A stretch of 37,511 bases of DNA from Sphaeroforma arctica JP610 (lineage: Eukaryota), in the NCBI RefSeq assembly GCF_001186125.1, contig NW_014040098.1, forward strand, positions 1-37,511, given 5' to 3'. Both the position numbers and the translations under genes were made by a program. Within the stretch, counting starts at the first letter, position 1. Every line of letters starts with the position of its first letter. Positions 1 through 36,432 of the stretch are shown piece after piece. The notes under the pieces are model-generated. The model was not told where the DNA came from. It did not search any database and saw only the letters and a list, made by a program, of their open reading frames with translations.

Positions 1-400
1 TAGTGTCTGTGCCGTGGTCTCCTTCGTCTTGTCCGGTGTGGCTCGGAAGACGGAGTAGCCAGTGACGATGTCCAAGACGTGAAGTATATAATTGTTCTTG
101 CGTCTGGACTCCAGTGGCATTGGGATGCAATCCACTTGGATGTGGTCCCATGGATAGCGTGCGTCAATACTAATCATCGGGTGTAAGCCTTTACGAAGCG
201 TATCCTGGCCCAAACACATGGCACACTGCCGCTTTACCTCTGTGGCTAATTCTAGTGCCCCAGGTCATACATGACCGTCCTGACGGAGTTGTTGGACTGT
301 GTCCGCTGCCCCATGATGTCCCTGTTCATGTTGCGCTTGTGTAAGCCGTGTGTGTCGCTGTTGCTCTGCCGGAGTTGCCCGTTCAAACGCTGGTTGACTT
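1..400 (-). pseudogene. Family A integrase N-terminal part (HHCC zinc finger and first catalytic Asp)
   Basis: Manual translation: AQHEQGHHGAADTVQQLRQDGHV*PGALELATEVKRQCAMCLGQDTLRKGLHPMISIDARYPWDHIQVDCIPMP...YILHVLDIVTGYSVF. The TGA at 265-267 sits where Trp is expected. Confidence 0.9.
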
Positions 401-519
401 TCGGCGTCCGCCATTGCCACTTCGCGCGCTGTGTCTAAGCACATCATATACTCTATGTGCTTTGGTTCTGCATACCCAAGTCGCTGTGAAAGCAGGGGGT
501 CCAACTTGAACCCGTTGTG

Positions 520-930
520 GGGTCCCACCCGTGCTACTACCGTATGTCCCCAAGGTGTCTTCCCGCAGGCGTACTTGGCATGCTTGAGGAATGTATGGGG
601 TGGGGTGTTCGTGGGATCAATAGTGGATCTGTTTGCAATAACTGCTTGAACAAGTCAAACCATGTTGCTCTTGGTATCCATGGCAAACATACCGTTGCCC
701 GTGCACCGTCCGCTCGTATCTTGCGTAACATCCTATATATCTGTTTCCAAGGTGGGTTCATCCATCCGTCAACTGTCGACCAGTCGTGAGCAAACGCGCC
801 TTCTCCCTCGTCCTTAGTCCAGAATCTAGGGAGCTGAGCGTTGGGTGGATCTGCAAATACATCTGCGTCGTTCGGACCGAAGTGTTGTTGCGCTTGTTCA
901 AAGTAGCTAGGGAACAACTGCCAACAATCC
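520..930 (-). pseudogene. Family A Dam/DIRS-like N6-adenine methyltransferase domain in Pol
   Basis: TDCWQLFPSYFEQAQQHFGPNDADVFA (motif I-like), NAQLPRFW, GAFAHDW, WMNPPW (747-758, motif IV), ATVCLPWIPRATWF. After a frameshift near 600: TFLKHAKYACGKTPWGHTVVARVGP. Confidence 0.85.
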
Positions 931-984
931 GTATACAGTATTTCAGGTTCGTCCTGCTCCGCTGTTCCCTCATGCACTCCTTCT

Positions 985-1830
985 TGCCACGTTAGTGCGT
1001 GCCTTTCCTTCCATCGGTCGCCGATCAACTCTTTCGGTTTGAGCTTGCGAAATTCGCGCAACGGTGCAACCGTATTCGCAAAGTTAGGGAGATGCTCATG
1101 GAGATAATTCGCCAACCCTAAGGCAGAGGCTATATATTTGTACCGTAGTGGGGGTAGGCCAGTCAATAAGTTTCGCCTGTTTCTCATGATCAATGTCTAT
1201 GTCCTTATCCGACACCTTCTTTCCTATGATCATCACTTCCGAAATGGCAAAGTGGCATTTGGCAGGATTGAGCTTACCCCGTTGAATCACCTTCCACACC
1301 GTCTCGATATGTTCGTAGTAGTCATCACTAGCGATCACGATGTCGTCGATATAGTGATGGACCGGTAAGCCATCCAGTATCGTGCTCAAGGTTCGCTGGA
1401 ACTGTTGTGTGAGCACGTGTAGTCCAAACGGCGCTGATGTTAACGAGTACAGGTAACGCTCGTGAGTGAAACTAAAGAGATATTGTGAGTCAGGATGGAT
1501 CGGTAGCCTATGATAAGCAGCCGATATGTCCAGCGTGGTGTAGTACTTCTTACTCTTGAGGCGAGAGATCAGTTCGTTGACCTTGGGAATTAAGAACTGA
1601 TCGCCTGGGATCAGGGCGTTGACCGCCCGCATATCTAAGCACACGCATACCTTCTTCACATTCCTCTCTGCATCAAACGTCAGGACCGCGAGGAGCGAAA
1701 AGTTAACCGTCGTTGGTGTCGTCCGCTTCGTTATGACCAGGTCCGACAACCATTTCTGTACTTGCTCGTCTACGTATGGTAGCCACCGGTCGGATACGAA
1801 GTTACGCGTTGATCTGCGCATATGCATCGC
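985..1830 (-). pseudogene. Family A reverse transcriptase
   Basis: KKVCVCLDMRAVN, YTTLDISAAYHRL, APFGL, HHYIDDIVIAS, KLNPAKCHFA, LIDWPTPTT, then frameshifted thumb LGLANYLHEHLPNFANTVAPL. Confidence 0.95.
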
Positions 1831-2049
1831 CTGTTCGTGGGTTACCGGAATAGTAACCTCGCTCCCTTCCAGACGACAACGTGCGTTGTCAGCAATCTAT
1901 GCGTTCGTTTCTAAGTCCCGTGTGAGTCCCTGTGTTCGGCGCCTGTCGGCGTGAGATTGGTTCGAGAAGCTCGTCGAGTTCTGTAGGGTCGATAGGCGCG
2001 AGTGGAGATTTGAATGCCTCCTATGTATAGGCCCAAACCCTTCAACATG

Positions 2050-2409
2050 TCTTGTCCCACTATAACGTCTATCCCCATGGTAAAATCATTAGTTATAGTG
2101 AGCCGTCAATGATCTTGGACCCATACCGAATAGGAACCACTTCCGTCGTCCCCAGTCGAGGAGTTCGAACCGCCTTGTCAGCTAAATATATGAATGACCC
2201 ATGTGGTGCTGGAGTTGTCGGGCGGCCGAGGAGGTCTGCGGATGTCTGTGATTTGCTCCCGTGTCAATTAGTGCCTTGAACATCTGTCCGTTCACTTGCA
2301 CTTGGATATAAACACGGTTATCAGACGACAGCAATGGGTCCTGTATCGCCATTACGTCCCTAATAGTGTTAACAAATGTGAAGCTCCTATCCAACTCAGA
2401 CACCCTCAC
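2050..2409 (-). pseudogene. Family A aspartic protease
   Basis: RVYIQVQVNGQMFKALIDTGANH (DTG motif), frameshifted downstream. Confidence 0.85.
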
Positions 2410-2436: not shown

Positions 2437-5135
2437 CTAATCACCTTGGTCCTGGTCTGTTTCCATCGCTGTAGGGTCGAAGTCTTCCGTGAGTATCGTA
2501 TTGATATGTACCTCTGTCGCTGCCGACGGTGGTACGAAACTGTCCTCGGACGTAATCGCGTTCACCTGTACTTGAGGTGTCGGGCGAGAGGTAGCCAATT
2601 CTCTGGTCGGGTTTAGTAACCTGACCCTGCCCTGAGGCTCGGGATGCGGGTGGTCTATAGGCTGGTTGTGTGTATCGTGATGCCCGGCTGTTGTCATACG
2701 AACGTGTCCTGCCCTCCGCACCTCCTGGTGGAACTACCCGGAAATGATGACAGCGTGGAATATGACGCGCCCCTGGTGGAGCTTGTGCCTGACATTCAGC
2801 GTATGTAGTAGGTGCTGTCGGTTGTGGTCGCTCTGCCCAGTTTTGTGCCTGATGTCACGTCGTCTGCGGGTTGGGGCGGCTATTGGTTTGTTACGGTTTT
2901 GTGTACGTGCCGTAGTGCGTTGATGCACGTCCTGGATGTCGGGACTTAACAACTGGATAAGCTCATGCGTCTTCATCAACTGCCATTTGGGATGCAACTG
3001 TAGAGTGCATTCGTACGTACGGCCGTTGAGAGCCTCCTCTAGCAGTTGAACTATGCAATGGTTTAGTAGGTTCTACTGAAATCTGTATCCGTCTGGCACC
3101 GTTCACGTGCCCTCCTATGGCTCTCCATCAGCTGTGCCATCTGTTCCATAATAGAAATGTGCATATTACGACTGTGACCCTTGGCAAGCTTGCGAAATGC
3201 GGGTGAAAATTTTTCAAGTCTGTGAAAGTATTCTTTATTTACTTTTGTACTCCGTATTTATACTATTTTTCGTCAAAATTGAACGGCCCTTTCGACTCGA
3301 AAATTTCCTTTGCCAAAGAAATTCCAACGGACGTGCGCGGTCTTTTTTTAGATTCCATCTCCAAAAATACAAACACAATTTCTTCAAATACACTTAAACG
3401 TCTAAGACTCACAACTCAATGAATATTCACTCAAACAACTTGAATAAGGTGTCATATGAAAGGGAAAAACATTTCCTATCAAATGATACCTGTAACAAAA
3501 TTACACATATAATAGATCAAACACAATCGGCGTACGAAACACATTCGTAAACACAACATACAAAAAGCATACTTAGATAATTGGTTCCTCGATGGACTAG
3601 GTCTGAGTCCAACACTTAAACATCATTCACCTTTGACAATATGATTTTTCTACAGCGGGATCCACAGTGGCTTGCGTCTCGTGGGAGTAGATCTGTTCGA
3701 TTTGTAGTTGTGGGGTCCACATCTTCAATTGTTCAGAGTTGTCGCGTATGTAGTCCAATGTGGATTTTTCTGCTTTAAAGTAAGATAACACCTTGTGAAA
3801 CCATGTGAGGCTCCAACTTTCGTCTAACCCTGCGATCTGCGCTTTCTTAAAAGCCTCCAGTAGAGCCCCTCTCGTATCCCGTTCCATGATTTCATGGAGG
3901 TGATATCTGTTCGAAGGCCAGTCCGGCCATGTCCGTGGTGATGGTACTGGACGTTTCTCCACTGGTCGGGCCTCTAGCGTGGCTCGGAGTGTCTCAATCG
4001 AACCCCTAAGGGCTTCAGCCCGAGCCGTGTTGTCATCCTCTATAGCTTGACATAATTCGTCGCTCAAGTGTAGTATACGTGCGTGTAACACCTGGCGGCT
4101 CTTTTCAATACTCGCCGGTGTAGGAGGAGGTGTAGGCATCGTTGTCTCCGCTGGCTTCTAATATTGTTCTTGCCCACTCCGCCGTTGGTGTGCATAATGT
4201 GGTCTCCGTACGTCGAGGGGTCTGTACATACTCACTAGCGGATTCCTTCTCGAACAACTGACGTTGTTGGTGTTGGCGATATGTCGAACACATCTGGTCT
4301 TGTTTAGTCTTGAGTGCCTCCTGCCCGTGTGGGTTCCGTTTGGCCAACACTTGCTCACGTACCAACTCCTGGAATGATGGCGCTGCCTCCCTGGATGACA
4401 GGACAGTGTTTCTTCCTCCTCAGAGGGTTGCCCTTCCGACTCCGGTGACTCGTATCCAAGGCCATGATGTGGTTGTGAACGACCTAGTATTCGGAACGTA
4501 GGGTTTTTCTCCCTGCTTCATGTTGTCTGCCCTTGTCTGTGTGAACTAGTAGATGGGGCGTGCGGAGACAACAATGTCGTAGGGCGCTCCGAAGCCGTAC
4601 TTTGCAATCTTTGTTCATACTTCTATAACAGCGATTGTTGTTGAGCCATGAGCTCGGTGATCTTTTGCGTTGACAGCTGCTCCCGTGTTGTACCCTTGTT
4701 GCTGGGGCGACGGCGATAACGTCTCCGCTTGTTAGGTGGGAGGCGTGGTTGCCCATTAACAGAGGATGAGGCGCCTGAGATACCCGAAGACGAACGAAGA
4801 GGCAGTCCTCCGTTACTGGCTACCTGTTCACCAGTAATGGACTGTTCCTTGTCCTCGCGCAGGTCAGAATCTCCCTTGGCCTCGTCGTTGTGTGCTACGT
4901 CTTCCGTTGTAAGGCTAGGTTCGCCCCTAGTTGCCGTAGGTATCTGTCGATCAAAGTTTGCTTCCTGGTTATGGATCTCGTCATCCTGAGTATCCCTCCG
5001 CCCTGTCTCAGACCGATGGCGGGGATGATTCGTTGGAGGTTGGTAGCGCTTGGGCCCTTTCTGGTCTATATCATCATCCTCTCGACGTTCAGAGGTTAGG
5101 CGTTGCTGTCGGCGGCTTTGACGTGTGTTGGACAT
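2437..5135 (-). pseudogene. Family A gag (fragmented)
   Basis: Colinear minus-strand ORFs (4623-5135, 3627-4139, 2437-2721) upstream of the protease, with low-complexity R/Q/P-rich segments; ends GD-TAG at 2437-2439. Assigned by position. Confidence 0.65.
3154..3650. mobile_element. AT-rich ~500-bp insertion in family A gag, possibly a MITE
   Basis: Abrupt drop in GC content interrupting gag; flanked by TA on both sides (3152-3153, 3651-3652); imperfect terminal inverted repeats GAAATGTGCATATT / AATATGATTTTTC. Confidence 0.5.
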
Positions 5136-6409
5136 AATAGGTATGTAATGTAATATAATGGAAGTTTGGAAATGTATGCAGCAGTCATCCTCAAAATAGT
5201 TCGGGTATAAATACTTCCCCGTCCTAGAGGTTCGACGCCCTTCTCAACAAATCTCGACATTCTTACTTAGACAATTTATTTCGTCCCTTGCCGCAGTATC
5301 AACTCACCCATGAATCCTGCGCCTGTCTTTAGCCAATGCATATGTTAAATGTATTTATGTTTTAGTACCCGTCGGGGTTCACCCTACCCCCTTGTGTGCT
5401 TCTCCATTCCTCTGGTGGAGTCACATCCCTCTTCAGTGAACCCCTTTTGCTCCTGAGAAGGCTCTTCAGCTCTTGTGTTGCTCCCCGTTTGTCGCTGATG
5501 TATTCTTCCGTGTTCCAACATGTGCCATTGTGGTAAGCAACCCATGATGGCTCCATATAGGCCTTGCTGGCTCTGCCGATCCCTCTCTTATGCAACTAGA
5601 CTCTACTTAATATTGCCCTCGTACGTCCCGTCGCCCGAAGTCTCCTAAGGCAGATGTTTCTTAGTATTGTTCTTGGTTCTCGTCCATGGCCTCCTTCTCT
5701 CGGTAGAAAACTTCTCTGTGAGTGTGTTGAGCTATAGTTTCTTGCAACGACTGGAATAGAATGTTAGCCCGTCTCGCTTACTGTAAATCTACTCGTTCTA
5801 AGCCTCTATGTGCAGGTGGTATGTTTATCCTTATTCCTACCCCCATATTTTCTACAAAGGTATAAATAACATTGCTATAGTTTGCTTTTGTCTAGATCTG
5901 GCGTGGGTCTATAATGTTTGTAATGTTATAACTTTTAACCCTACCTACCGTAGGCACTACTATCTTATATCTTCTCTTAAATATTTCTCTGTTCAACACT
6001 CTAAAATCTACCTTTTCTGACTCTATTGGAAAACTTATAATAGACCTAAAATAATCAAATAAACTACGTACTATAGTATTCTGACCACATGCGACCTCTC
6101 GGCGTTGTAATATGTTTTCTCGGTGAGGAGATCAACATCTCGCCTGTCCGTATGTGGATATCGACCCATTCAAGGCCTGAGAGGTGAGAGAGTCGCGCGG
6201 TCAACTTGCTAGCGCATATATCGATGATAAGTTCCCATTGGAGATTAGTCATGGCTTGTTGTCACTCGTCGGGGTTACGCATATATGCGTTGGTATTCAG
6301 GTGTATAGATGGCTTGTATGTGAGGCTCATATCTCGGGATCTGGTCAGAGTTTAGTGTAGAGCGGCGACTCAAATGATCATCATTACAATGAATTTCATC
6401 GTAGCATCA

Positions 6410-8380
6410 ACTTCTCTATCATGGTCTCACAATTGAAAGTCCTCTCATCTACCAAAATTAGGTGAGTGGTTTGTGTTCTACGTTCGATATTTTCATTAAA
6501 GCAACGCGATCGGATAAGCATGCACTTTCTGAACCAGGATCAATTAATTCAAGGACTTTATTTTCATTGCAATATACAGGGATTACTACGCGCTCATCTA
6601 AGGAGTCGTTGTATTTTTTTGTTTGAATTGAACCCGCTAGTACCTTCACTCCAACTTAATGTCGGGTTTCTTGTCGAAGACTTAGCGTGATGGTCATTTG
6701 TCTTCTCGCACTTGTCGCACTTACTAAGATAGTGCTTATAAGTCAGTTCGTGGCGCCCGTTCCATCAACCGTTCGGGGTTAATTGGTACATATCGTACCC
6801 ACGCTTTGTAATAGCAGGGGCCTCCACGTTAGAATCTTGTATATAACCATGCTTTTAAAAGTACGTAAAACTTGGTTTTCCTAAATTGTTTTTTAACGGT
6901 GAAATTAATTAAATACCTTTTCCATTTTTCATTTCAGATATTTGGACATGGCCATTAAAGGCTCGATTATATGCCAAAGATATGATTTGGCCTCGTTCTA
7001 TTAATATAACTATATTAGACTTCCAAATCTATTTATATCTGAATACTCCGGTAGCGAGATGGCTCAACCGAACACAGGTTTCTAGGGACGATTAGCGTTG
7101 CTTAGTTTATCATCCGTTCAGCCAACCAGATTGCCAATCTGACGAAGGCTAGTCGGTAATTCTTGATAGTGAATAGTTATTGGTTAATACAATAACCAGC
7201 GACAACAATAATATTTTTCTTTTTCTTTTTTCTGTTTTTCTTTTCTTCTAAAGATAGGAGGATTTCACGAGTCTCTCGAATTTGTCCCGACGAAACATAG
7301 TAATAGTCTCAGGACTGAGAGGATTATATATAGGCAATGTCTCAGCCGCACAATCCCCCAGAGTGTTTCACGAGGCATACCTAACTTTACTAAAAGACTC
7401 ATTCCGTTTATTTTAGTTTGAATTTATTGAACTTAAGACCATTTTAAAGCGTTTAACTACTCTAAGTTGTTAACACCGCCTTGGGAGGCCGAAATTTACA
7501 ACTTCTCGTCCGCATACTTCTTGACTTTTTTTGTACGGAGGTTCCTTTTCGACACGCGCCTTCTTTTGGGTCGCATGTTGGGAACGTTCTCTCGCGGGCG
7601 TACCGATGGACGCTCGTTAGAGGTCTGTTGGGACACGTACCCTTGATCAGACTTCCCCCATGGTTCATTACCAACCACGTGCTCTTTCGAGGATACTTGA
7701 TCCTAGGTATATGTGTCGTATACAGTATAAAAAAACTGCTCCCAACGTAGTCGGATCAAGTGGAACTTTTTCGCTTGACCCTGTACTATCGACTCGTTTG
7801 ACATACTTGCGACAAAGTTCGCTATACAGCCTCTCGCGATCGTTGCTACCAATGTTCACGCAAAGTACATGCTTGGCACGCAACTCATACTATCATGGCT
7901 TTTCATCCCTGGTTATATTAGGTCTGTTTAAGTCCGTGTCGAGCATTAATATGTAGCTCAGTATGGTAGTGCTCGGTGCTAGGAGTACCAAGATCGGACA
8001 TATAACTCGGCTGCGCATACCTTTGCTTAGTAGGAAGGCTACTAATCAGCATACCTCATGCCAGTTATGACAGCGGTCAAGCTCGTCGAGGTGCTTCTGA
8101 AGGATCTGATAACCGATTCCTTCAGGATTGAACGATTGTATAAGCGCAGAGATCCATTGCTGGAGTGCGATGTCATTCGTCTCTAGCATTACAGGAAAGG
8201 CGTTCAGGGAACGAGACAGTGTCTCGAGATCATGGTTATTGATGAACTCGGACTTCTGGGAGTTAGTATCCCAGTTCGACGTATGTTTACTGATCATGTC
8301 CTTGTATTTCTGATTGTCGCGGTTATCCTGACCGCGTTATGCATGTAACAGCTGAATGATACGCTTCTGTTTGATGGCAC
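6410..8380 (-). mobile_element. Gypsy family B, copy B1 fragment (3' gag + protease), split by a solo LTR
   Basis: Reverse complement aligns by eye with ~14280-15560: NNHDLETLSRSLNAF, NIGSNDRERLYSEL, KCDKCEKTNDHH, VVIPVYCNENKVLELIDPGSE. Confidence 0.9.
6807..7500 (+). repeat. Solo LTR of family B (694 bp, TGTA...TACA) with 4-bp TSD
   Basis: Starts TGTAATAGCAGGGGCCTCCAC and ends GAAATTTACA; homologous to LTRs at 29389/34501-35216 and 36433-37203. Flanks GCTT/ACTT; removing the LTR and one TSD restores gag DEKCGYDM (DAQCGNDM in B2). Confidence 0.92.
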
Positions 8381-13181: not shown

Positions 13182-15326
13182 ACAAGGGACACGTCTCATG
13201 ACGCCCAAGCCCATTCTTTTGACGAACTCAGAAAGGAAAGTCCCCAATTATAAGGGCGTCCCCAATTATAGGGGACAAGGACAAATCTCAGAAGGAACCT
13301 ATTATGGAACCAGAAGAGGAGGCAAGCTCAAGTGGCAAACCTGACTTTACGTCCGAGACTACTAAGCCAACGCACATAAAATTACTGAAAACACTGATCT
13401 TAAGAATCAGTTAGCTACCATTATGAAAGACTTGACTGTCGAACATCTAGATCAATTATATAGATCAGGAAAATATACACAGCACTTACGCGAGCATGTT
13501 TCCCCGGGCATTACTAAAGCCCTACAGAAGTGGACAGAACGTCGACAGGCAATTACGCCCGAAGAACGTAAAGACTCATGCGCTACACCTGTGGCATATG
13601 AGCCAGATGTGCTTAGCGTATCTATACCTTACGAGGCACTACCGCCAGAAATTCATGATAGTTACTCGCCTGTTCTGACACCCGGCCGTGAGTCACCCGT
13701 CCTCGAGGGTATTATAGACTCAGAGGCAGGTAGAAATACTCCACCACTTTTACCCAATTGGGGATGACAATCGTCGGAAACCAGTTAAGACTAGGTATGT
13801 TATCCAGACGCATGAATCACCCAAGATTACAATACAAACCACTATCCGAGGAACAGAGCACCGAAAGGCCTCGACCATGGATTTTACCAGGGGTAATAAA
13901 CACCCCCGTAGAGGCAGGTAGAAATACTCCGCCACTTTTACCCAATTGGGGATGACAATCGTCGGAAACCAGTTAAGACTAGGTATGTTATCCAGACGCA
14001 TGAATCACCCAAGATTACAATACAAACCACTATCCGAGGAACAGAGCACCGAAAGGCCTCGACCATGGATTTTACCAGGGGTAATAAACACCCCCGTAGA
14101 CGTGTTAACGAAGTTAAATTTAATCGCTTCGATCGCACAGCACTACATCAACCCGCAGAGGATTTTCACTCTGGCGAGGTGACCGAACTTAACAAATCGG
14201 TCGACGATTATACCAGTAAAATGGAAATCGCCCACGATGCGCATTATGCTGATGATGTAACATACTTTGCGAATATGATTGCGATTAAGCAAAAGCGCAT
14301 TGATCAGTTACTTCAGGCCCAACGTGGACAAGACCACATGGACAACCAGAAGTACAAAGGGCAAATCAGTCGACTTGGGTCGAACTAGGATGCCAACAGT
14401 AAGCAGGTCGAGTTTATAAACAACTATGACCTCGACACGCTAACCCGTACGCTTAATGCGTTTACGGTTCTGCTGGAGCGAACGATATCGCTCCCCAGCA
14501 ATGGATCTCTGCTTTAATGCAGACGTTTGACCCTACAGATACAAGTTATTTGATCCTGCAGCGACACCAGTATGAGCTAGATACTTGTCGTGACTGGCCA
14601 GCTGTGTGTTGGTTGGTTACATCCTTGTTAAGTAAGGACATGCGTAGCCCTGGACTGAGTTCAATTTTAACTGATCCAGTTGAGAACACGCCCATTCAGA
14701 GTTATATTCTGAAGCTAGATGCTGACCTGAAACGTCCAGATATAACAAAGGACAAGGCACAGCGATGGTACGAGTTCCTGGTTATGCACGTGTTCTGTAA
14801 GAACATAGGGAATAACGACCGTGAGAGCCTGTACACCGAGTTGCGACGTAAACACGCGACTGAGGCTCGAGAAAAGGGACATGAAACAAATTTTCATCGA
14901 TCCCGACTTACGTGGGAACAGTTTTATGATACTGTATCCACCCTTTTCCCCTCACATCGAGTAACATTGAAGGGAAAAGCGGCTGTTAAGTAGCCGCGGG
15001 AGCACACCGATCACGGGTACGTATCCAGGCAGACCTCAAACGAGGGACTCCAACATACAAGTGCTCGCGACTCCACTCTATCCACGCGACCCAATAAATG
15101 GGCACGCGTGGGAGCGAAGGACATGGAACCTCCATTTAAGGAGATTAAGAAATGTGCCGACGCACAGTGTGGAAATGACATGTACCAATTAACCCCTAAC
15201 GGTTTTTGGAATGGCAGACATGTATCCACCTGTACACACTTTCTTATTAAGTGCGACAAGTGTGAGAAGACCAATGGCTATCACACTAAGTCTTGTGACA
15301 AAAAGCCCAACATTAAGTTGGAGTGA
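13182..15326 (+). pseudogene. Family B gag with C-terminal Cys/His knuckles
   Basis: Fragmented ORFs ending CADAQCGNDM...WNGRHVSTC...CDKCEKTNGYHTKSC...KLE-TGA. Confidence 0.8.
13722..14097 (+). repeat. Near-perfect 188-bp tandem duplication in B2 gag
   Basis: Units 13722-13909 and 13910-14097 with AGA microhomology at the junction; single copy in B3 (~36158-36345). Confidence 0.93.
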
Positions 15327-16800
15327 AGGTACTACCAGGTACAATCGTTACACAGACAATACAACGACTCTTTAGATGAGCGTGTAATAATCCCTGTATA
15401 CTGCAATGGAAATAAAATCCTTGCGTTGATTGATCCTGGTTCAGAAATTTCATGTATATCCGATCGCTTTGCATTAATGAAAGATATCGAAAGGAGAACA
15501 CAAACAACTCACCTCATGTTAGCTGATGATAAAACTGCTAAGTGTGATACCATGGCCACAGATGTTAAAATCTCCCTGGCCGATGATAGAAATATCACTA
15601 CCCAAGCTGTGATAGTTAAGATGTCACAGAAGTACGACATTATAGTCGGAGTGAGTGATTTACTCACTCTAGGTATAACCGTAACTGGTCTACCATATAA
15701 CATAGATCCATTAAAGGATCAATCAGACGATAACTGCCTGAATCCATATAAGCCACCGTCAGATACAGTCAAGGCATTAATACCTGACTTTGCGAACAAA
15801 ATCATGGATCTGATTCTAGTTAATAAGAAGACAAAGATCACAGATTGGGCAAAATTCCGCTTTAACGACGGATATGTCAGCCTTGACTTAACCAAGGTAG
15901 ACTCTACACAGTTAAAGTGTCCCTTAAAGAACTATGTATCCTGGAGACACGAGGCTGTGGTAAAAGAACAAGTTGAGAAATTGCTAACAGATGGAGTGAT
16001 AGAAATTAACTATCAACAGACACCAGTTAACTTGGCGCTGCTAACCGTAGACCAACATAACTCTGACGGATCGTTTAAGAAAGTCAGAGTATGTTTAGAT
16101 ATGAGTCCAATAAATAAATTATTGCCGACTCATAGCTTTCACTTACCTCGTATTAACGAGCTACTGCGAAGGATGGAAGGTGCCACAGTATTTACAACTG
16201 TAGACCTTACACAAGGATACCATCAAATGCAGGTATATGAACCACACCGTAAATACTTTAGCTTTACGTGGAAAGGTAAACAATACCGGTTCAGAGGTGC
16301 ACCTTTCGGGTTACACTCTTTACCAGCATTCTTCCAACAAGTAATGGAAGAAATTTTTGCAGACATGCCTAACGTGCAAGTCTATATAGATGACATAGTC
16401 ATCTTTTCTAAGACTAAGAGCGAACACGCCGCATTAGTCAGACGAGTCCTTAAGAGATTCAACGAGCAAAACTTCAAGATTAACGAGAAGAAATGTCACT
16501 TCGCAATGAGCGAAATACCGCTCTTAGGCTACCATATATCTGGGGAAGGTATTAAAATTGACACCGGTAAGGTAGCACACCTGTTAGATTGGCGAACACC
16601 AACTACAGGAAGAGATGTTAACAGCATGTGTGGGTTTGTAAACTTCTTTTCAGATGGAGTACCACATTTAGCTGACTACCTTAAACCTTTTGAACACTTA
16701 AGATGTCATAAAGGCAAACTAGGAGACTTGTAGACTAAAGAGTGTGATGACGCATTTAAAGCGCTCAAGAACGCAGTCCAACAAGCTCCTATTGTACAAG
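15327..16800 (+). pseudogene. Family B protease + reverse transcriptase
   Basis: ILALIDPGSEISCIS, DIIVGVSDL, KKVRVCLDMSPINK, FTTVDLTQGYHQ, APFGL, VYIDDIVIFS, KCHFA, LLGYHIS; TAG at 16731 at an expected Trp. Confidence 0.96.
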
Positions 16801-16814
16801 GACCAGTCGATGGC

Positions 16815-17180
16815 GTGCCTTTTGAAATAGCAACGGACATATCAAACTTAGCACGCGGAGGTGTACTATACCAGGTTATAGATAATAAACCTAGGTATAT
16901 ACAATTCTTTAGCCGAGCAATGAATGCATCACAGTTGAATTATCCAACTGTGCAGCAAGAGCTACTAGCCATAGTAGCAGCTTTAACACACTTCCGCGGT
17001 TACTTAAACGGAACAGCTTTTACGCTGATGTGTAATCAGAAATCTCTTCAATATATGAAAGGGATGAACTCCGACTCACAATTACTGAGTCGCTGGCACG
17101 ATACAATATCAAAGTTTCATTTTGATATAAAACATCTACCAGGGATACATAACCATTTACCGGATATATTATCACGCTTC
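16815..17180 (+). pseudogene. Family B RNase H
   Basis: FEIATDIS...GGVLYQ...NYPTVQQELLAIVAALTHFRGYL...HLPGIHNHLPDILSR. Confidence 0.93.
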
Positions 17181-17219
17181 GTACTGGACTTTAATAAATA
17201 CGTACGTGAGTTACTAGCC

Positions 17220-17630
17220 ACTGACTGGAAATGTAACCCCAGGTGGTTTGAACTGGCTCAAAAGATATTTGGGCCACATACAATTGATATGTTTGCTGCA
17301 CATCATAATGCACAACTAAAGAATTACAGGACTTTAAATCATCCTTTGGGAGATGCCTTTCAACTAGACCTCTCCAAACATAATGCGTGGGCTAATACAC
17401 CATGGCAGTTAATTGTCCAATCATTAAATTATGTTCATATACACAAAGCTACAATCCCGTTGTGTTGCCCATTACGGAGTAAAGATCCATGGCTCAATAA
17501 ATTGATAAGCATGATACAATGCGAGCCAATACATTTAGATAGGGAAGTAGATACTTTCCAATATCAGGGTACCCGAGCCGTCCAGAAGACACCCTGGAGA
17601 CATACTATAATATGTCGTATAGGTCCCATT
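17220..17630 (+). pseudogene. Family B Dam/DIRS-like N6-adenine methyltransferase domain, in frame with RNase H
   Basis: TDWKCNPRWFELAQKIFGPHTIDMFAAHHNAQLKNY...GDAFQLDL...WANTPW (17394-17405)...KATIPLCCP...KTPWRHTIICRIGP. Confidence 0.85.
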
Positions 17631-18079
17631 GGAACAACCAAATGGACCCCTTCTGAGACCTTCCTTAACAAGGTCAAAGAATCATAGATTCCACTCTCTA
17701 CTAGATTGAACGTTAAGCAGTTCAATGGCAACACAGCACTTGAAGTCTGTGCACAAGAAATACACTCTACTAATGACATTACAGTTAAGAAGCGTCAGTC
17801 TCTAGCCAGGACTCTGTTTAATAACATAAAGTCCAAGCCCGAAGTCTTTCAAACCCTAGTTTTAAAGGGATTAATGAAAGATAATCCCGAAGTATATACA
17901 CATTTAATCCGACTACTGAATAAGTCAGGTGTATCTAACGCACATGAGCGCACTTATGACACTCATGCGAAAGCAGAACATGAGTCTGGAAACACAGAGA
18001 CCACGCAAGTGGATTCTCAACACCCTACCTTTATTCTGGAGGAGCAGAATGATAAAAAAAATATTGCTTGGCTGACGCA

Positions 18080-18800
18080 AAACCATAAGTTGAAGCACCA
18101 GAACGTAGTAGACGCACTTAAAGATGCTAAGCGAAATGGCATCGCGCACAGCTGGCAACTTTAGTTGACAGAGTATATCAGTCATGTACAGACTGTGATC
18201 TCAACCAGATTAAGCGCTATGGGTTCGCACCGCTTAAGAGTGTGACTGAAGATGTTCCATGGCGCAGGGTCATCATTGATCTGGTTGACCTGCCCACGTC
18301 CGAGCACACAGGCGACCGTTACGTATGCCACTTCTTTGATGTGGCGTCAGGGTATAACTTGCTCTATCCTTTAAAGTACAAGAGTACGCAGACCATGGCA
18401 GAATTATGTTGCCAAGTCTTTGCTGACCACGGGTGGCCGGGTATTATGTGCACTGATAACGGTAGTGAGTTCTGCGATGACGTTATGAAATCGCTAGTAC
18501 CCGTATCAAGGATGTGCCATAAAAGGGGTGTACCATATAAACCGCAAACACAAGGCGCGAATGAAACGCGCCATAGAAGACTTAAGTTCTTCTTGCGTAC
18601 TGCATTAACGGATGATGCAGATGATTGGCCGTACCACCTTAAGTGGGTACAAACACAGATGAACGAGTGTGCTGATCCGGTTACAGGTACAACACCCGCT
18701 CACTATTTTCGTGGATCCCCTTTAACAAGGACGAACCTAATCACCATGAGTTACTATGATTAGAGAAGGTACAACGTATTTATAACGTTGTATATCCTTG
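18080..18800 (+). pseudogene. Family B DDE integrase
   Basis: HKLKH (HH), PWRRVIIDLVD, FFDVASGY, TDNGSEF...PYKPQTQGANE with exactly 35 residues between D and E. Confidence 0.93.
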
Positions 18801-19277
18801 CTTGCAAGAAATACGCAATATTGGTTTAAAAAAAGTTATATAACTAAGGGTTGTATTGAATCCACCGTCGAGCAAAAAAAACCCCCCGCCCTCTGAACAC
18901 GCCCTCTAGAGTTTGTTGGAGTTTACTTGGAAAGCGTGATGTGATCCATCATCCAACTAGAGGGCACTTCCCGCGTGCACAATATTTATTTTATACACAG
19001 GCCAGAGGGCGTAGCACAAAGTATTCATTTAGCCATAGACTTCTGAATTGAAACAAGCCAAGTATCTTCGGCCCATATCGTATCAATTGTATGTTTTTGG
19101 TACCGGGATTTTAAAAGCTTTTTAGGCGCCATTTTTATTTTGAAAACACACGTCGATAAAATGTACAGTCAGAAACTACCTAATTGTCAAGGAAATGCAA
19201 ATAAACACACTTTATGTTCACAGATAAGCGGCTTTGAATCATTTAGTAGTGTAGACAGTAGAACTAGTGCAATCAAT

Positions 19278-20430: not shown

Positions 20431-23606
<3,176 letters not shown>

Positions 23607-28179: not shown

Positions 28180-29388
28180 ATGGCAGGAGGAGCAGTTAGA
28201 AGTCCACCTAGTATTTATGGCGGATCTTTGGGGCGACAGTTAGACTTCTCTATGGATGATGATGTTTTGAATAAGAAATTTTGTGTGCCAGAAGACAGCA
28301 GCGACGATGAAGAGTTTTGTGATCCGCTCATTAGTGTGACATAGGAGAACAAACATCTTATCATGCATCTCACAACATATACAACATTGGAGAGCTTTGT
28401 GATAATCTAGACACTGACGTAGAAGCACAAGATGCAAATCAAAATGCTAATGGTTGCAGTGGTGAAGTTGATCTTGCAGAAAGCGAGGACGAGTTTAATA
28501 AAATACTTGCAGATAATGCCTTAGATGTACCTGCAGTATTACAGCCTAAACCGAGAAAGAAACGTACCAAGGCAAAATTATTGCCTACAGGTGATGCATT
28601 GCGCAGTGGATGTTTGTCTACTATAATTGCGCACGAGTCGCCCCTGAAGCAATATGCACCAAGGGTTTCAGCACTCTCGATACTTCTGTACAACTTACTA
28701 CTGCATCAACCACTACTGCTCTAGATTCTACGACATCAGCTGCTGCTGCTCTAGATGGAGTAACTACTGCTGAGGCTACATCGACTATTGCTACTTTAGA
28801 TACTACTACATCAGGGTTTATTGCACCAGTTTTAGATACGTCAGCTACTATAGCTCCAGTTAATACTACGTCAGCTACTACTGATACAGCTACTATTGAA
28901 AAGACAGCTACTACTGAATCGACGACTTCTGCTCTAGATACTACTGGTGCAGCTACTACTGCACAAGTTGCTACTACATCAGCTACTACTGAGTTGACAG
29001 CTACTACTGAATCGACGACTTCTGCTCTAGAAACTACTGATGCAGCTACTACTGCACCAGTTGCTACTGTATACGTCAGCTACTACTGAATCGACTACTT
29101 CTGATCTAGACACTACTGGTGCAGCTACTACTGCCAGCTACTACTTCTCCGCTAATAATACGAACAGTTGCACAAGAATATCTGACATTTACAAAAGTTA
29201 ATCTCTGGAAGGAGTTAACAAGAATCTCGTGTTAATCACCCGGTACGATATAAAATCGGGTTCGCTTGTTCCCAATCAACTCTCCAAGTCATACTCCTGG
29301 AAAGGACCTCCATCTTCTGCTCCTAAAGAGGTTTTAGCCAAAGTCTTGGAGATGAACGATGTTTCACATACAAAACTAAAACTCGTAT
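28180..29388 (+). pseudogene. Degenerate ORF of unknown family: acidic N-terminus, basic PKPRKKRTK motif, Thr/Ala-rich repeats; cut by the LTR at 29389
   Basis: MAGGAVRSPP...EDSSDDEEF with stops and frameshifts; CAGCTACTACTGAATCGAC units at 28905, 28998 and 29077. Confidence 0.45.
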
Positions 29389-29443: not shown

Positions 29444-30099
29444 GGATAATATTATTTATTTCAAAGGAGTTAAGTTACAATGTATGTACATATGGTATGG
29501 CTCTCATAGCCGTTGTAGTGGTTCGGGGAAGATCGATGGGAAGAAGTGGTCAGTAAATTTCCTGTTGAAGCTTGGGCCAAGTGAGTCGACAATGGAGGAT
29601 ATGCGCTGGGTCAATTCAGGCCGGTGCTGACAAAAAACTGACACCATCGAGTGTGCCACGTATTCGCTTTCTGACCTACTAAATAGCGTACCCACCTCTG
29701 TGGTTCGGATCGGGTCTTTATCGTGTAGTGCTGTGGAATGGGTTAGTGCAGAGTACGGAATGCCAAGTAGGACCAGGTTATCCGTCATAATTCGGTTGAG
29801 GAGCGAGGTTGGGGGTGAACCGATGCCGCACCAGACCACGGATTCACTCGGTATGTGCTGGTTTGCCTGTATTGGAAGTATCATAGGTGGAACCAACAGG
29901 CGCGATGAATTGGTTTGGACCGAAATTTGGAAGTAGTACTTCAACAGCGTGATTGGCCGGGGTATAGGAAACATCTGTTGATATGTCAGAGACGGGTGTG
30001 GGTACAGGGGTTGTTCTACATGCTGGAGAAAAGATCCAAGGTGTTCGTGGAGGGTCCAGATACCATGGAAGTTGTGGCACTCCTGTAGTTGCTGGAGGA

Positions 30100-32937
30100 G
30101 ATCAGGGCCAATGAGAGGTAGTTTCGGGCCTACCAGGATGTATTGGATCAGTTGCTAGATGCAGGCAAAGTGGCTGGTGGTGAATTTTTGGCCACCGGGG
30201 CAGACAGGGTAGAGACAGCTGTCAGTGCGGTAGTCGAACAATGTGAACATGTACGTATTTGTTACGATCATAGCATAGAGCCGTATTGGTGTAGGCTCGA
30301 AGCAGCGGTTGAAGCTGTCGTGTCTGGCTTTGTCCCGATCTGAGGTTGGCTGTTTGCCCATGACCAATTGGTAGTAGTATTGACGCCGGGCCATTGCTAC
30401 GATCTCCTTGTTGGACCAGCGCTTCGTTGAATTCTTTCTAATGTCGTCACATCTTCGGCGGAGGGCTACATGGTCTGGTGTACGCATGTCCGTGGTTTCG
30501 TATACAGTCTTCAAGTGGGCATAGATACTGTACGGAAAGCGCAGTGAGGGTTTGTCGTGGGCCCAGGCGGGTTACGTCAGAGGGGTGAGTGAGTTTGTGC
30601 TGGCTATTGAGTCGAGTTGCAGTCCCAGGCAACCTCCGAGGTAGTCCGCGAATGCTCGCGTGGGGAGCAGGCCACAAATATGGAGTAAGTTGGTTTGATG
30701 TTTGGGAAACCTAGGGTATTTGGTGCCCGTGATGATGGCTGCTGCTCGAATGAGTGCTGAGTTATAGCGCTCAAACAAGGGCTCCAGCGTATCCTTCCAT
30801 ATAGGTGGAGCCCAGGCAATAATGTTCAGGCCATATTTAGCCGTGGATAGAATGAATGTTTTGAACAACACCAGCCTGTTGCGGGGGTGTCGCCAGCTGA
30901 AGCCATGGAAACCATAAGCGCGGAAGAAGGCGATACCCAGAGACAATGCTGTAACCAGGGATTCCATATGTCTGGTGAAAATTTTAGAAAAACCCGGGCT
31001 TGGATCCGTGCGTCGTCGACAAATAAATAAAAGCGGAGGAGCTTGAGCCGGAATTGTGCTAATGTGGTAGCCAAAGAATCCATGTAGATAATAAAGAGCT
31101 GGGGGCCAACGATTGAGCCTTGTAGGATGCCATTTTTTCTATGAAATAGATGCGAGAGCAAGCCGCCGTATGTCACTCGGGTAGGGATCTTCTCAAATAG
31201 CACGCGGAGGCAGTTGATCCAGTTTTCGGGCATTCCAGCGTGGCGCAAGTGTACCCACAGGCGCGGGAGAGCAACCTTGTCGTATGCCTTGGTAATTTCC
31301 AGACAGACGTCGCTCCACTCCTCTTCCGACTGTGTCTCAGATTCCATGGCGGCGAGTGCTTGGTATGGCAGGGGTATCGTGATTTGAAGCCAGCTTGGGT
31401 TGCGTGGGTAGCAGAGCCGTGGTGGCTAGTAATCAGCTTGAGGAAACACTTCTCAAATATGCGTCTGACGATTTACGCTAGCGTGATAGGGCGGAAGTCG
31501 GCGGGGGAGGTGATATCTGCATCGGCCTTTTTTGGGTGCGCTGTCAGGAGGGTGCAGTTCAGGGCGGTAGGGAAGGTACCCGCCTTTAGTAGCTCAGTGA
31601 ATGCTTCGGCAAGGAGTCTACTCAGTAGGCTATTGGCGTCCGGACGTCCTAGTGTCCTGTGTTCGGGGGAACGCTCCATTGCAGCCTTCAGAAGGAAGAT
31701 GTGGATTCCGTCAGGGCCAGGCCCCTTATTATGATAGCGTAGTATAGTCTCCATTACATCGTCGGGGCGTATGGCAAGAGTTACATCTGGCGAGGGTTCA
31801 GTATTCGGTGGAATAACGTACGGATTCGTGGAGTTGATTAGGTCCTCAAAGTAGCCAGTGAGAGTGGCGCCTGTGTAGTCGGCACCCGGTATGCAGGGTT
31901 GGCGTAGAAATCGTCGTTGGTACGCAATATCTTGGGACATTAGGGTATTGCTTTGGGCGGTCAGACGTGGGCGGAACGAGTGGTTTGGCAGCCGTTGTAC
32001 CCAAGGTCTATTTATGTCGTAGTAGAATCCCCCAAAGATTTGTGGGTTAGCGGCATAGCGCCAGATGCGGTCGAGAATCCGTAGCAAGCCTTCTGCTGGA
32101 CCATGCAAGGTGAGATACGACCGTAGTAGGTTCTGATGCACCCGGATTTTGGCTTGGAATAGTCGTGCGCGGGATTTGTTACGTAAGTGATAAAGTCGAT
32201 GGTGATATCGGTTATATCCATGAGAGGGAAGGCGTTGGTCCGGAGGCGGCGGCATTGTTGGTATTTGTTGGTGCCGACGGATGTGTTCCGTTGGAAGTAC
32301 CTGGAGATCAAGCCCAAAAGTGTGGTCACTATAGATGCTGTAGTTTGACAGTTTATAGGTCTGGAGGGAGGCGGAAGTCGTGGGCCGGTGATACGCATGT
32401 TCTGCACCAGTTGAGCCGCCAGCATAGAGATAGTCAAAGTGCCACGTGTTATGTAGGGTAGTTTCGATCGTGTTCATACGTAGTCCGTGAATTGTGGATG
32501 CGTGACCATACTTACGGGCTTTAAAGTTAAAGTCGCCCCAAACGACGTCTGGTTGGAAATTGCCAATCTCGGGAGGATTCATGTATTTCCTGACGTCTTC
32601 TTCGTTGAGTGATTTGAGTGGGAGGTAGAACACGGCCATATGGACGCCAAAGCATACAAAGGATACCGCGTAAGGTGAGGAGTGAACCAGTTTGAATTGA
32701 GATGGGTGGTGTTTGGAAAAAATACCAATACCACAGTGTGAAGGGTGTAAGATGTTGTGCCGTGTTGTGTGATGTAGAATATGATAGTATGTGTTTGAGG
32801 AATGTGATGTTATGCCAGGTTTCAACCACACACATAACATCAACCTGACTCAAAATCGATATAACGTTCAAGCACTTATCTGTATGTGCTGCATTGTCCA
32901 TGTTGAGTCCTTGTGGGTTGAAGAGCGTCATCCTCAT
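30100..32937 (-). pseudogene. LINE ORF2: endonuclease + RT
   Basis: MRMTLFNPQGL, CVVETW, VWGDFN, SDH; KGPGPDGI, DFRPITL, ITKAYDKV, GILQGSIVGPQLF, LFVDD, LFKTFILSTAKYGL, CLYPVC...HFAC. Frameshifts, and part of the RT after FVDD appears deleted. Confidence 0.92.
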
Positions 32938-32942
32938 TGGTC

Positions 32943-34225
32943 CTAAAATTGTTCATCCTCGGTCAATACTACTGGGCCCTGGTCCTTGTTGATGTCAGCC
33001 ATTTCTATATCGTTTTCTGTCGTCGAAGTGTCTGTGGTGGAAGGTTGAGGCTGTGTGGGGAAGACCGTTGGTACGTGGGGTTGTCCGGGCTGCGCACGTT
33101 CTGGCTGTGTGTCAGCGCCTGTCGGGATTCGTGGGTTAGGTGACAAGCGGTTTGTAGTATGTTTTGTTTGATATGCCTTCTGGAGCCGGTCCGTGGTACA
33201 TTGGAGAATGTCTGCGTTGGTGGAATTAACAAGGGGGTCCAGCAAAGCATTCATGCTACGGGCTAGAAGTTTTGGTGCTCGTTCATGTGTGCAGCGGGCC
33301 TCCCGCTTGGTGCGGAGATAGTGGAATAAGGCTGCTTTCGTAGCGTTAGGATGTTGTTAGGAGCGGGGGTCTATGGTTTTATCAAATTGCCACTTCCACG
33401 TTAGTTCTGTATGACGTTTCACCTGGGCGACAGCGTCATTGGGAACACAAAGACGGACGAAACTGGAGGAGGTCCCGCGGCGATTTAGTTCAGAACCCGG
33501 TTTGAACGGGAGATACCAAAGAAAGTGGTAGCGATTAAGGAGCGGTTGGGCGTGCCAGTATTTCTCAAATACTGATTGGGATGGGGGCTTGCCGTTGGAA
33601 AAAAAATGCCCGAAAGAAGAGCCATACCGGAGTGATGTCATCCATTTCGTGGAGAGTTTTGTCCGGCATCGGGCGGCCCATCACTTTCGTCAGAAGCTGT
33701 GCGGGTGCTGGCGGCTGCAGTAGGGGCTGAGAGGTCGGTGGGATCAGGGGTTTTTCGGGGAGTCGGTTTTGTGGGGTTGCCCACTTTTGAGCGGTAGCTG
33801 GGAGGTTCACTGTTACTACTACAAATGGACGCCTGTGGCCTCGGTCTTTTTGCTGGCGGGGCTGGCGGGCTTGTGGAGCCAAACCGGAAGGTGTTGGGTG
33901 TGCCTTCATTTAGAGGTGCACAGGTTTGGGATTTAAGGTCTCGGAGTTCGGATTCGAGGTTGTTCACTTTGACACAGAATTCCGTGAGTATTTGGTGCAT
34001 GGTTAATTTCCATTGGTCGTCAGCCAGAGGCTTTTTGGAGATGGGCCCATTATTGTCCAGGTTTGGTAGGGCCGGCCCCGACATTTGGTTGAGATTAGTC
34101 TGTAGAGTATTGACCTGGGCAGAGAGGTCTGTGATAGATTTTTGTAAATCCAATTTCCATTGGTCATTGTGCAAGGAGTCGTTGGGGACGAGCGCTTTAG
34201 TTGGGGATTCAGCCTGGCCCGACAT
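32943..34225 (-). pseudogene. LINE ORF1 (duplicated MSG...DQWKL heptad-like segment, Pro-rich linker)
   Basis: ATG at 34225; frameshifted ORFs end a few bp before the ORF2 ATG. Confidence 0.7.
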
Positions 34226-34500
34226 TTTTCGGAGGCTGTGGGACTGTGGTCTGTGGGTCGTGAGACTGTGGGACCCCAAACTCCCCACTGGAATTTTGTT
34301 TTGAAGAAAAATATATATAAATCTAAATCTAAACTCCAGGTCCGGTATGATACTATGTGACTTTTTAGTGGGGTCTGTGGGTTTTTGAATTTGGCATTCA
34401 GTTTTACATTGGTGACTTGCGGGTCACCGAGATTTACGTTTCGGAGACGGAAATTCGAGTCAAAGGTCCGAAAACCCTAAAACCCTAAACCTTTTGATTG

Positions 34501-35216
34501 TACGTAAAATGTACTCTTAAAAGTACGTAAACTTAGTTTTCTTTAAATGATTTTTAACTGTTTTTATTAATTAAATACCTTTGCCATTTTACATATCAGA
34601 TATTTGGACAAGGCCATTAAAAGACCCCAGTAAAATACCAAATATAAGATTTGGTCTAGTTCTATTAATAGAACTATATTTACCTTCCAAATCTATTTAA
34701 TATATCTGAATACTTCGGTAGCGAGATGGCTCAACTGAACATAGTTTTCTAAGGACTATTAGCGTTGCTTAGTTTATCCTCCGTTCAGCCAATCAGATCT
34801 GCCAGTCTGATGAAGGCTAAGTCGGTAATTCTTGATGAGTGGCAAGTTATTGGTTAATGCAATAACTATGGACATCAAGTAGTTTTTCTTCTTTTTTTTT
34901 CTTTCTTTTTTTTCTAAAGATAGGATTTTATGAGTCTCTCGGATTCGCCCCAACGAAACATGTCATAGTTTCTAATAGAGCGACAACGAAACACTAAATA
35001 AAATACCGTCGGCGAAAACAGTACTGAGAGTATTATAAATAGGCAATGTCTCAGCTTCACAATCCCTCAGAGTATTACTGTTTTCACGAGATATACCTAA
35101 CTTTACTAAAAGACTCATTTCGTTTATTTACTTTTAAATTTTGATATACTTAGACATAACCTAAGCCTTTATTTACCCTAAGGCGTTAATATCGCCTCTA
35201 TAGACCGATACTTACA
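34501..35216 (+). repeat. Remainder of the B3 5' LTR (ends CTTACA)
   Basis: Colinear with 6860-7500; contains CCAAT (~34789) and TATAAATA (~35034) boxes. Confidence 0.92.
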
Positions 35217-36432
35217 TATTTTAAAGTCAACAAAGGTATTAACTACTTAGACTACTTAAACGTAAAGGTAGATAACTACCACGAAATTTTTCCTAAGCAC
35301 AGTCATTCCTTCAGAGAATAAGACAGAAGTCATAAGTTAGGATTATGACAAAGAAAGACAATACGTCTGCAAAGAAACGCAAGGCCGAACGTAAGAAGAT
35401 GGAGAGAGAAGCCGCTAGCGCTGCCGCATACAGAAGCAACCGCCGCTGCTGCCGATGCGTTTAACCGCACCGTAGCCGAAGCACTTGTCTCCGACAATAA
35501 TAGTCTGGACAATGCTTCGGATAAGGATGTAGCCACTCCGATTAAGGAGACTACTCCTACAGATAGAGCCCGAGGGCCAACTATTGCCTCAACTTCGAAG
35601 CTCGCATTTACGAAGCCAGGAAGTGAGACAAGGGACACGTCTCAAGACGCCCCAACCAATTCTTCTGACGAAACTCAGAAAGAAAAGTCCCCAAATATAG
35701 GGGACAAAGACGAATCTCAAATGGTACCTGTACCGGAACCAGAAGAGGAGGCAAGCTCAAGTGGCAAACCCGAATCTACGTCCGAGACCACTGAGACAAC
35801 GCGCATTAGTAAGTTAACTACTGAAAACACTGATGTTAAGAATCAGTTAGCCGCCCTTATGAAAGGCATGACTGTTGAACATGTAGATCGAATGTATGGA
35901 TCAGGAAAACACGCACAGCACTTATGCGAGCATGTTTCTCCGGGCACTATCGAAGCCCTATAGAAGTGGACAGAACGTCGTCTGGCAATAACGCCCGAAA
36001 AGCGTAAGGACCTGAACGCCAAACCTGTGGCAGTTGACCCAAATGGACTCAGCGTAACTTTACTTTACGAGGAGCTACCACCAGAAGTCCAGGAGCTTTA
36101 TTCGCCGGTTCTATCACCCGGCCATGAGTCGCCTGTCCTTGAGGGTATTATAGACCCAGAGGCAGGTAGAAACACTCCGCCACCTTTACCCAACTGGGAT
36201 AACAATCGTCGGAAACCAGTTAAGACTGGGTAAGCCATCCAGACGCATGAATCACCCAATATTATAATACCAACGTCTATCCAAGGAACAGAGCACCGAA
36301 AGGTCTCGACCATGGACTTTACACGGGGTAATAAACACTCCTGTAAACGTGTTAACGATGTCGAATTTAATCACTTCGATAGCACCGCCTTACACCAACC
36401 CGCAGAGGATTTTCACTCTGACGAGGTGACAG
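35217..36432 (+). mobile_element. Family B copy B3 leader and 5' gag (ATG 35345), interrupted by copy B4
   Basis: MTKKDNTSAKKRKAERKK...; 35628-36432 aligns with 13182-14185. Confidence 0.9.

What the first reader, a model, noticed from the sequence alone, without database searches (positions are those of the whole stretch)
1..1830. A second, highly divergent Gypsy family carries the same MTase at the same position with an intact NPPW
Family A shows no evident DNA similarity to family B. It still has the homologous domain (TDCW...FGPNDADVFA...NAQL...AF..DW...WMNPPW...KTPWGHTVVARVGP) directly upstream of an HHCC integrase. The RTs share an unusual segment (VNFSLLAV...KKVCVCLDM vs VNLALLTV...KKVRVCLDM). 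Inference: the MTase is an old, vertically kept and selected part of a whole clade, not a one-off capture.
Basis: partly seen in the sequence, partly recalled or inferred. Interest (0 to 1): 0.85.

Follow-up and report, generated by a model that had tools for sequence, protein, structure and literature searches.

The report
Methylase-carrying Gypsy retrotransposons, known lineage
Two very different jumping-gene families in this window carry the same adenine-methyltransferase-type domain just before their integrase, likely inherited from one ancient capture, but a 2026 preprint already describes this lineage in single-celled relatives of animals, and what the domain methylates is still untested.

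Summary
Confirmed, but already described. Elements A (minus strand, runs off the window at base 1) and B (13.2-18.8 kb) are broken Ty3/Gypsy copies with a Dam-family (PF05869) methyltransferase before an HHCC integrase. They share no DNA similarity; third codon positions are saturated, yet the domain is 35% identical. RT and integrase trees put both in one clade of methyltransferase-bearing elements (100/99; 97/94); the methyltransferase tree agrees only weakly (89/43; AU tests do not reject separate captures). Family-A copies show purifying selection (pN/pS 0.15-0.2). All five named relatives are from Sphaeroforma, Abeoforma or Pirum: the 'Ichthyosporean DAM-LTR lineage' of bioRxiv 10.64898/2026.05.21.726589. 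The scan found this architecture before in other genomes. Corrections: this A copy has lost RNase H (other copies keep it) and is frameshifted; B reads NTPW. Two small additions: the domain's best structural match is the RNA methyltransferase PCIF1 rather than T4 Dam, and clade relatives carry a divergent chromodomain that the preprint says is absent.

The parts
1..354 (-). Element A integrase: HHCC zinc finger and start of the catalytic core; in-frame stop at 265-267; runs off the window
   Evidence: blastp to P0003 39% over 115 aa, E 3e-21; integrase tree
500..944 (-). Element A Dam-family (PF05869) N6-adenine methyltransferase domain; NPPW at 758-747; frameshift near 596-609 before the last strand (KTPW 561-520)
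   Evidence: Pfam E 4e-9; 35% to B; 66% to S. arctica SARC_07150; motif positions
979..980 (-). Junction where RNase H is missing from this copy
   Evidence: loose ends of contigs at 979 in X12, X16 and X1, X3, X12, X17 read an RNase H C-terminal motif; P0001 begins with the same junction
981..1914 (-). Element A reverse transcriptase and connection; frameshift near 1150; clade-specific segment VNFSLLAV...KKVCVCLDM
   Evidence: Pfam RVT_1 E 2e-14; tblastn of P0003 1914-1144 and 1151-981
2078..2328 (-). Element A aspartic protease remnant, frameshifted
   Evidence: tblastn of P0003, E 6e-6; DTG motif
2441..6027 (-). Element A upstream part (gag-like and leader frames, broken), multi-copy up to about 6.0 kb; 5' end approximate
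   Evidence: ORFs; contigs of other copies cover 3655-6027, identical low-depth contigs from 6056 on
3204..3654 (.). Solo-LTR-like insert (TG...CA) with 5-bp target duplication GCGGG inside A's gag region
   Evidence: joint 3198>3655 in all 4 runs laid; sequence ends
15327..16730 (+). Element B protease and reverse transcriptase
   Evidence: Pfam; 72% and 67% to P0075, P0167
16734..17177 (+). Element B RNase H
   Evidence: Pfam RT_RNaseH E 2e-25
17178..17657 (+). Element B methyltransferase domain; motif reads NTPW at 17394-17405
   Evidence: AlphaFold2 pLDDT 92.7; fold searches
18050..18837 (+). Element B integrase (HHCC, core), broken and cut short before the C-terminal modules
   Evidence: Pfam rve E 1e-5; tblastn of P0167 and P0075 tails ends at 18837

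Best explanation
A and B are decayed copies of two deeply diverged Ty3/Gypsy retrotransposon families, likely of the published ichthyosporean DAM-LTR lineage, whose Pol carries a conserved adenine-methyltransferase domain between RNase H and integrase that was likely captured once from a DIRS element and is predicted to methylate adenines of the element's own replication intermediate. Shown: domain order, homology, one RT and integrase clade, purifying selection, a complete class I methyltransferase fold for B's domain. Inferred: the domain is packaged with RT and integrase, puts N6-methyl marks on the RNA:DNA hybrid or new cDNA, and the marked insertion is then kept in 6mA-rich open chromatin by the host's AMT1 (the preprint's model). 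The two window copies are themselves dead.
For: Architecture; intact one-ORF relatives PR-RT-RH-Dam-IN such as P0003. Of 20 hits looked up, 5 carry a species name and all 5 are S. arctica, A. whisleri or P. gemmata, the three species named for the lineage. RT clade 100/99, integrase 97/94, methyltransferase set in the best tree; shared C-terminal T-P-W-x-x-T motif in 92-100% of 13 clade rows vs 5-14% of 21 DIRS-like rows. The 3 best RT-only hits all carry the domain. 21 synonymous vs 12 non-synonymous differences, none in NPPW. The preprint reports more 6mA and expression on DAM-LTRs in S. arctica and A. whisleri.
Against: Methyltransferase monophyly is weak (89/43) and AU tests leave separate captures open; RT and methyltransferase distances do not correlate among six deep lineages (r 0.23, p 0.24), though methyltransferase and integrase do (r 0.70, p 0.006). 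No catalytic activity was seen when such domains were expressed in dam-minus E. coli, and Iyer et al. judged DIRS-type domains likely inactive. Host species is inferred from relatives, not shown; no genome is held. 9 of the 10 clade relatives came from a methyltransferase query, so absence of Dam-less members is weak.
Confidence: 0.75

Rival explanations
1. Same origin, but the substrate is RNA: the domain is a minimal PCIF1-like enzyme that methylates the element's genomic RNA (cap-proximal or internal adenosine) or the RNA strand of the hybrid, and the 6mA seen on insertions is written by host AMT1 because the elements are transcribed.
For: Best structural matches are PCIF1/CAPAM (Foldseek ranks 1-3; VIA Z 9.5-10.2 over 134-147 residues), then rRNA methyltransferases (Z up to 9.0), then T4 Dam (Z 8.2). 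Iyer et al. place DIRS-type domains in the PCIF1 clade. PCIF1 prefers ssRNA > hybrid > ssDNA > dsDNA (abstract). No activity on E. coli DNA. The 160-residue model has no separate target-recognition domain.
Against: Z differences of 1-2 between related folds do not fix substrate; Foldseek E-values are only about 1e-3; Pfam family PF05869 is annotated as a DNA methyltransferase; DAM-LTR insertions are enriched for DNA 6mA.
Confidence: 0.25
2. The domain is kept as a non-catalytic binding or structural module (nucleic acid, SAM or RNA polymerase II mimicry), not as an enzyme.
For: Iyer et al. proposed inactivity; negative E. coli assay; CPPW in P0167 and P0005-like rows and NTPW in B; earlier scan notes report lineages with the motif lost but the domain kept (unchecked).
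Against: NPPW/NPPF in 123 of 163 domains collected; no listed change in A's NPPW codons and only silent ones in DVFAD among the differences shown.
Confidence: 0.2
3. A and B captured similar DIRS domains independently at the same site.
For: AU tests p 0.15 and 0.20; A's domain is only slightly closer to clade rows (mean 37%) than to DIRS-like rows (32%); repeated captures are known.
Against: Same position, one RT and integrase clade, shared short loop and T-P-W strand, constrained trees 23-25 log units worse.
Confidence: 0.07

Closest known systems
Ichthyosporean DAM-LTR lineage (Fernandez-Moreno et al., bioRxiv 10.64898/2026.05.21.726589; whole main text read; supplements closed)
   Same: Ty3/Gypsy organisation with a Dam-like domain with NPP motif; nearest named relatives are from the same three species; single DIRS-derived capture.
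   Different: The preprint says the lineage lacks chromodomains; relatives in this clade, including A. whisleri P0016, carry a divergent one below Pfam's cut-off. Its main text has no occurrence of 'PCIF1' or 'purifying'. Whether families A and B are listed individually could be in supplements I could not see.
DIRS1 retrotransposon MT domain (PF05869; Muszewska et al. PMC3783388, passages read)
   Same: Same domain family, same place after RNase H.
   Different: DIRS have a tyrosine recombinase and neither protease nor DDE integrase; A and B have both, and their RTs lie outside the DIRS clade (100/100).
PCIF1/CAPAM cap-adenosine N6-methyltransferase (PDB 6IRV-6IS0; Iyer et al. PMC4738411, passages read)
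   Same: Best structural match of B's domain; NPP[FW] motif.
   Different: 11-15% identity; no WW or helical cap-binding domain; substrate of the retroelement domain untested.
KnitGypsy-Dnmt3 (de Mendoza et al. 2018, PMC5890265, passages read)
   Same: A methyltransferase inside Gypsy Pol under purifying selection.
   Different: That is a C5-cytosine enzyme in a charophyte; unrelated domain.

Membership tests
Ty3/Gypsy LTR retrotransposon | Pol order PR-RT-RH-IN with HHCC zinc finger | tested here: met
   B complete order; A lacks RH in this copy, other copies show its C-terminal motif at the junction
Ty3/Gypsy LTR retrotransposon | RT groups with Gypsy, not DIRS | tested here: met
Ty3/Gypsy LTR retrotransposon | Paired LTRs, primer-binding site, target duplication | tested here: inconclusive
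   A runs off the window; B is flanked by an N gap and cut short; no genome held
Ichthyosporean DAM-LTR lineage | Dam-like domain with NPP-aromatic motif inside a Gypsy Pol | tested here: met
   A NPPW; B NTPW in this copy, NPPW in P0075
Ichthyosporean DAM-LTR lineage | Dam domain clusters with S. arctica, A. whisleri and P. gemmata elements | tested here: met
   A sister to S. arctica P0001 (100/99); A, B and Abeoforma rows in one set (88; 89/43); the Pirum row is inside and outside
Ichthyosporean DAM-LTR lineage | Host is an ichthyosporean | tested here: inconclusive
   Spliced host gene closest to vertebrate enzymes among PDB chains; all named element relatives ichthyosporean; no direct taxon result
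Ichthyosporean DAM-LTR lineage | No chromodomain | tested here: inconclusive
   C-termini of A and B are not in the window; relatives carry a divergent chromodomain, very degenerate in B's nearest relatives (E 0.13-0.3); this questions the feature rather than membership
Ichthyosporean DAM-LTR lineage | Insertions enriched for 6mA and expressed | not testable with these tools
   no modification calls available
DIRS1 retrotransposon | Tyrosine recombinase, no protease or DDE integrase | tested here: not met
   protease and DDE integrase present
PCIF1-type RNA methyltransferase | Methylates cap-proximal or internal RNA adenosine | not testable with these tools
   fold similarity only

The most novel reading that the evidence does not exclude
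The lineage's Pol couples a hidden chromodomain reader with a minimal PCIF1-like writer whose real substrate is the element's RNA or RNA:DNA hybrid inside the particle, not chromosomal dsDNA; this would explain the failed E. coli assay and make it a retroelement-encoded RNA/hybrid adenine methyltransferase kept since the ichthyosporean families split.
Probability: 0.25. Interest if true: 0.6.

Novelty: already known. Interest (0 to 1): 0.27.

Why it matters
As a discovery it is ordinary: the element class and this lineage are in a May 2026 preprint. What the window adds is evidence that the domain has been under purifying selection both between saturated families and among recent copies, a structural pointer (PCIF1) to which substrates to test, and a correction that the lineage may be chromodomain-bearing. 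The open question, what retroelement Dam-like domains methylate, remains testable in a culturable host if the host is Sphaeroforma.

Tried and rejected
Word-index protein searches with A's domain found nothing (143 and 113 candidates); the full HMMER search found 1759 proteins at E<=0.001, so those blanks were a sensitivity limit. No genome is held. The protein atlas gave no answer. The wide structural search did not run; the VIA result is a second look at Foldseek's hits only. Mixture-model RT tree finished only as a quick tree (99); the bootstrap figures are LG+G4. P0032 (long branch) and 6 redundant cluster mates were dropped from the RT tree; only the first 14 full-length DIRS-like RTs and 34 Dam-less RTs were used. 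Expression: no RNA holder listed. Contig depth was not used as copy number. No tRNA genes. Rejected: A as a DIRS element (protease, DDE integrase, RT tree); A as an RNase H-less family (other copies show the RH end); nested insertion or assembly chimera as the source of the fusion (one-ORF relatives P0003, P0016, P0075, P0167). Literature searches; 'DAM-LTR' occurs in one paper only; no search addressed chromodomains in ichthyosporean elements beyond that preprint's text.

Full report
What is there. The window is eukaryotic (a spliced adenylosuccinate synthetase gene from 20437) and holds two Ty3/Gypsy copies. Element A lies on the minus strand from about 6.0 kb to beyond base 1: gag-like frames, protease remnant (2328-2078), RT (1914-981), a Dam-family methyltransferase (944-500) and the start of an HHCC integrase (354-1). 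Element B lies on the plus strand: protease, RT, RNase H, methyltransferase (17178-17657), integrase to 18837. Both are broken by stops and frameshifts.

Checking the observation. Every quoted motif is present. A and B share no nucleotide similarity beyond 19-21-nt chance hits; in codon-aligned RT and methyltransferase the third positions are 26% identical, i.e. random, while the proteins are 42% and 35% identical (pairwise BLASTP). Three corrections. This A copy lacks RNase H: at about 979/980 the RT connection runs straight into the methyltransferase, whereas contigs from public runs continue there with letters that read like B's RNase H end, and S. arctica SARC_07150 begins with the same junction. 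The NPPW part and the KTPW strand are in different frames in this copy. B's motif is NTPW here, NPPW in its relative P0075.

Relatives. phmmer of A's domain found 1759 proteins at E<=0.001 among 1.84 billion; 150 were listed. Pfam scans of 37 of them showed several intact PR-RT-RH-Dam-IN polyproteins near the top and many DIRS-like RT-Dam proteins lower down. Of 20 looked up, 5 carried a species name: S. arctica (P0001, 66% identical), A. whisleri (P0008, P0016, P0025) and P. gemmata (P0012). An RT-only search with B gave 57 hits; the best three (72, 67, 44% identity) all carry the domain, and the remaining 54 are at most 35% identical, one of them (P0169) with a methyltransferase after the integrase. 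That search is word-limited and missed other clade members, so it is weak evidence that no Dam-less member exists.

Trees. RT (65 rows): A, B and 10 Dam-bearing relatives form one clade, 100/99 (99 under a mixture model); the 'unusual' RT segment is this clade's shared signature. Integrase N-terminus (36 rows): the same set plus P0112, 97/94. Methyltransferase: all 12 fall in a 19-row group (SH-aLRT 88, 152 rows); in a 51-row tree 18 rows group at 89/43, with the Pirum row outside. Forcing A, or B, among DIRS-like domains costs 23-25 log units but is not rejected (p 0.15, 0.20). Distances correlate across 10 clade members (RT-MTase r 0.63) but not across six deep lineages (r 0.23, p 0.24), where MTase-IN still do (r 0.70, p 0.006). 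A single kept capture is thus the best reading, resting mainly on RT, integrase, position and shared motifs.

Selection. Contigs laid on 500-1160 show subfamilies about 88% and 99% identical to the window copy. Of the 40 differences shown (64 found), 33 lie in the domain: 21 synonymous, 12 not; pN/pS 0.15-0.21, p 8e-6 against neutrality; none touches NPPW. The list is the best-supported subset, from contigs.

Structure. B's domain folds with pLDDT 92.7. Best matches are PCIF1/CAPAM (Foldseek E about 1e-3; Z 9.5-10.2, rmsd 3.2-3.8), then Erm/KsgA (Z up to 9.0) and T4 Dam (Z 8.2, rmsd 2.8 over 111). This fits Iyer et al., who put DIRS-type domains with PCIF1 and thought them inactive (passages). 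[quoted passage not shown] A's own domain was not folded.

What is known. Fernandez-Moreno et al. (bioRxiv 10.64898/2026.05.21.726589; whole main text read; supplements closed) describe DAM-LTRs, at least four DIRS-to-LTR transfers, and an ichthyosporean lineage (97%) in exactly these three species, with more 6mA and expression than other LTRs, and no activity in dam-minus E. coli. Their model is methylation of the RNA-DNA intermediate followed by maintenance by host AMT1. Earlier notes of this scan report the class in at least 3 other genomes.

One addition. The preprint says this lineage lacks chromodomains. A profile from 10 chromodomains outside the clade scores C-terminal segments of P0016 (A. 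whisleri), P0157, P0005 and P0033 at E 3e-5 to 6e-4 among 222 proteins; the reciprocal profile finds all 10 outside chromodomains (E 8e-9 to 2e-3; hhalign 98%); Pfam Chromo hits P0164 at E 2.6e-4, below cut-off; a model of P0152 matches solved chromodomains (TM 0.79 on the target, rmsd 1.3-1.7, E about 0.01). It is very degenerate in B's nearest relatives and cannot be seen in A or B, whose ends are missing.

Verdict. Real, selected, likely single-origin; a member of a published lineage (host inferred, not shown). Mechanism most likely self-methylation of the replication intermediate, with RNA substrate or a non-catalytic role as live rivals. Interest 0.27.

Noticed in passing
window 3204-3654: Solo-LTR-like insert (TG...CA, 451 bp) with a 5-bp target duplication inside A's gag region; contigs in 4 of 4 runs skip it.
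   Followed up: partly
window 6842-7500, 34507-35216, 36433-37139: A 650-710 bp repeat in three copies; the first splits a B-family fragment, the last two face each other (90% complementary) around a 1.2-kb stretch like B's 5' end (35628-36430).
   Followed up: no
window 6420-8379 (minus): Second, older B-family fragment (gag to protease), 65-81% nucleotide identity to B.
   Followed up: partly
window about 29500-34400 (minus): Broken non-LTR-type element: an endonuclease-like frame and an RT fragment (RVT_1 E 2e-9).
   Followed up: no
window 20437-22961: Spliced adenylosuccinate synthetase gene with microsatellite-rich introns.
   Followed up: partly
window 28595-29145: Thr/Ala-rich frame built of 15-nt-based repeats, mucin-like.
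   Followed up: no
window 13722-14100: 188-bp tandem duplication (99% identical) in B's 5' region.
   Followed up: no
proteins P0083, P0063: Copia-order polyproteins (integrase - Dam - RVT_2) whose domain groups near the Gypsy ones; 'copia' does not occur in the preprint's main text, though its Chloro-Ochrophyta clade has the domain between integrase and RT.
   Followed up: partly
proteins P0016, P0005, P0006, P0033, P0152, P0157: Divergent C-terminal chromodomain in the clade said to lack one.
   Followed up: yes
protein P0032: 2382-aa polyprotein with protease, endonuclease/exonuclease domain, Dam, RT, RNase H and integrase in that order.
   Followed up: no
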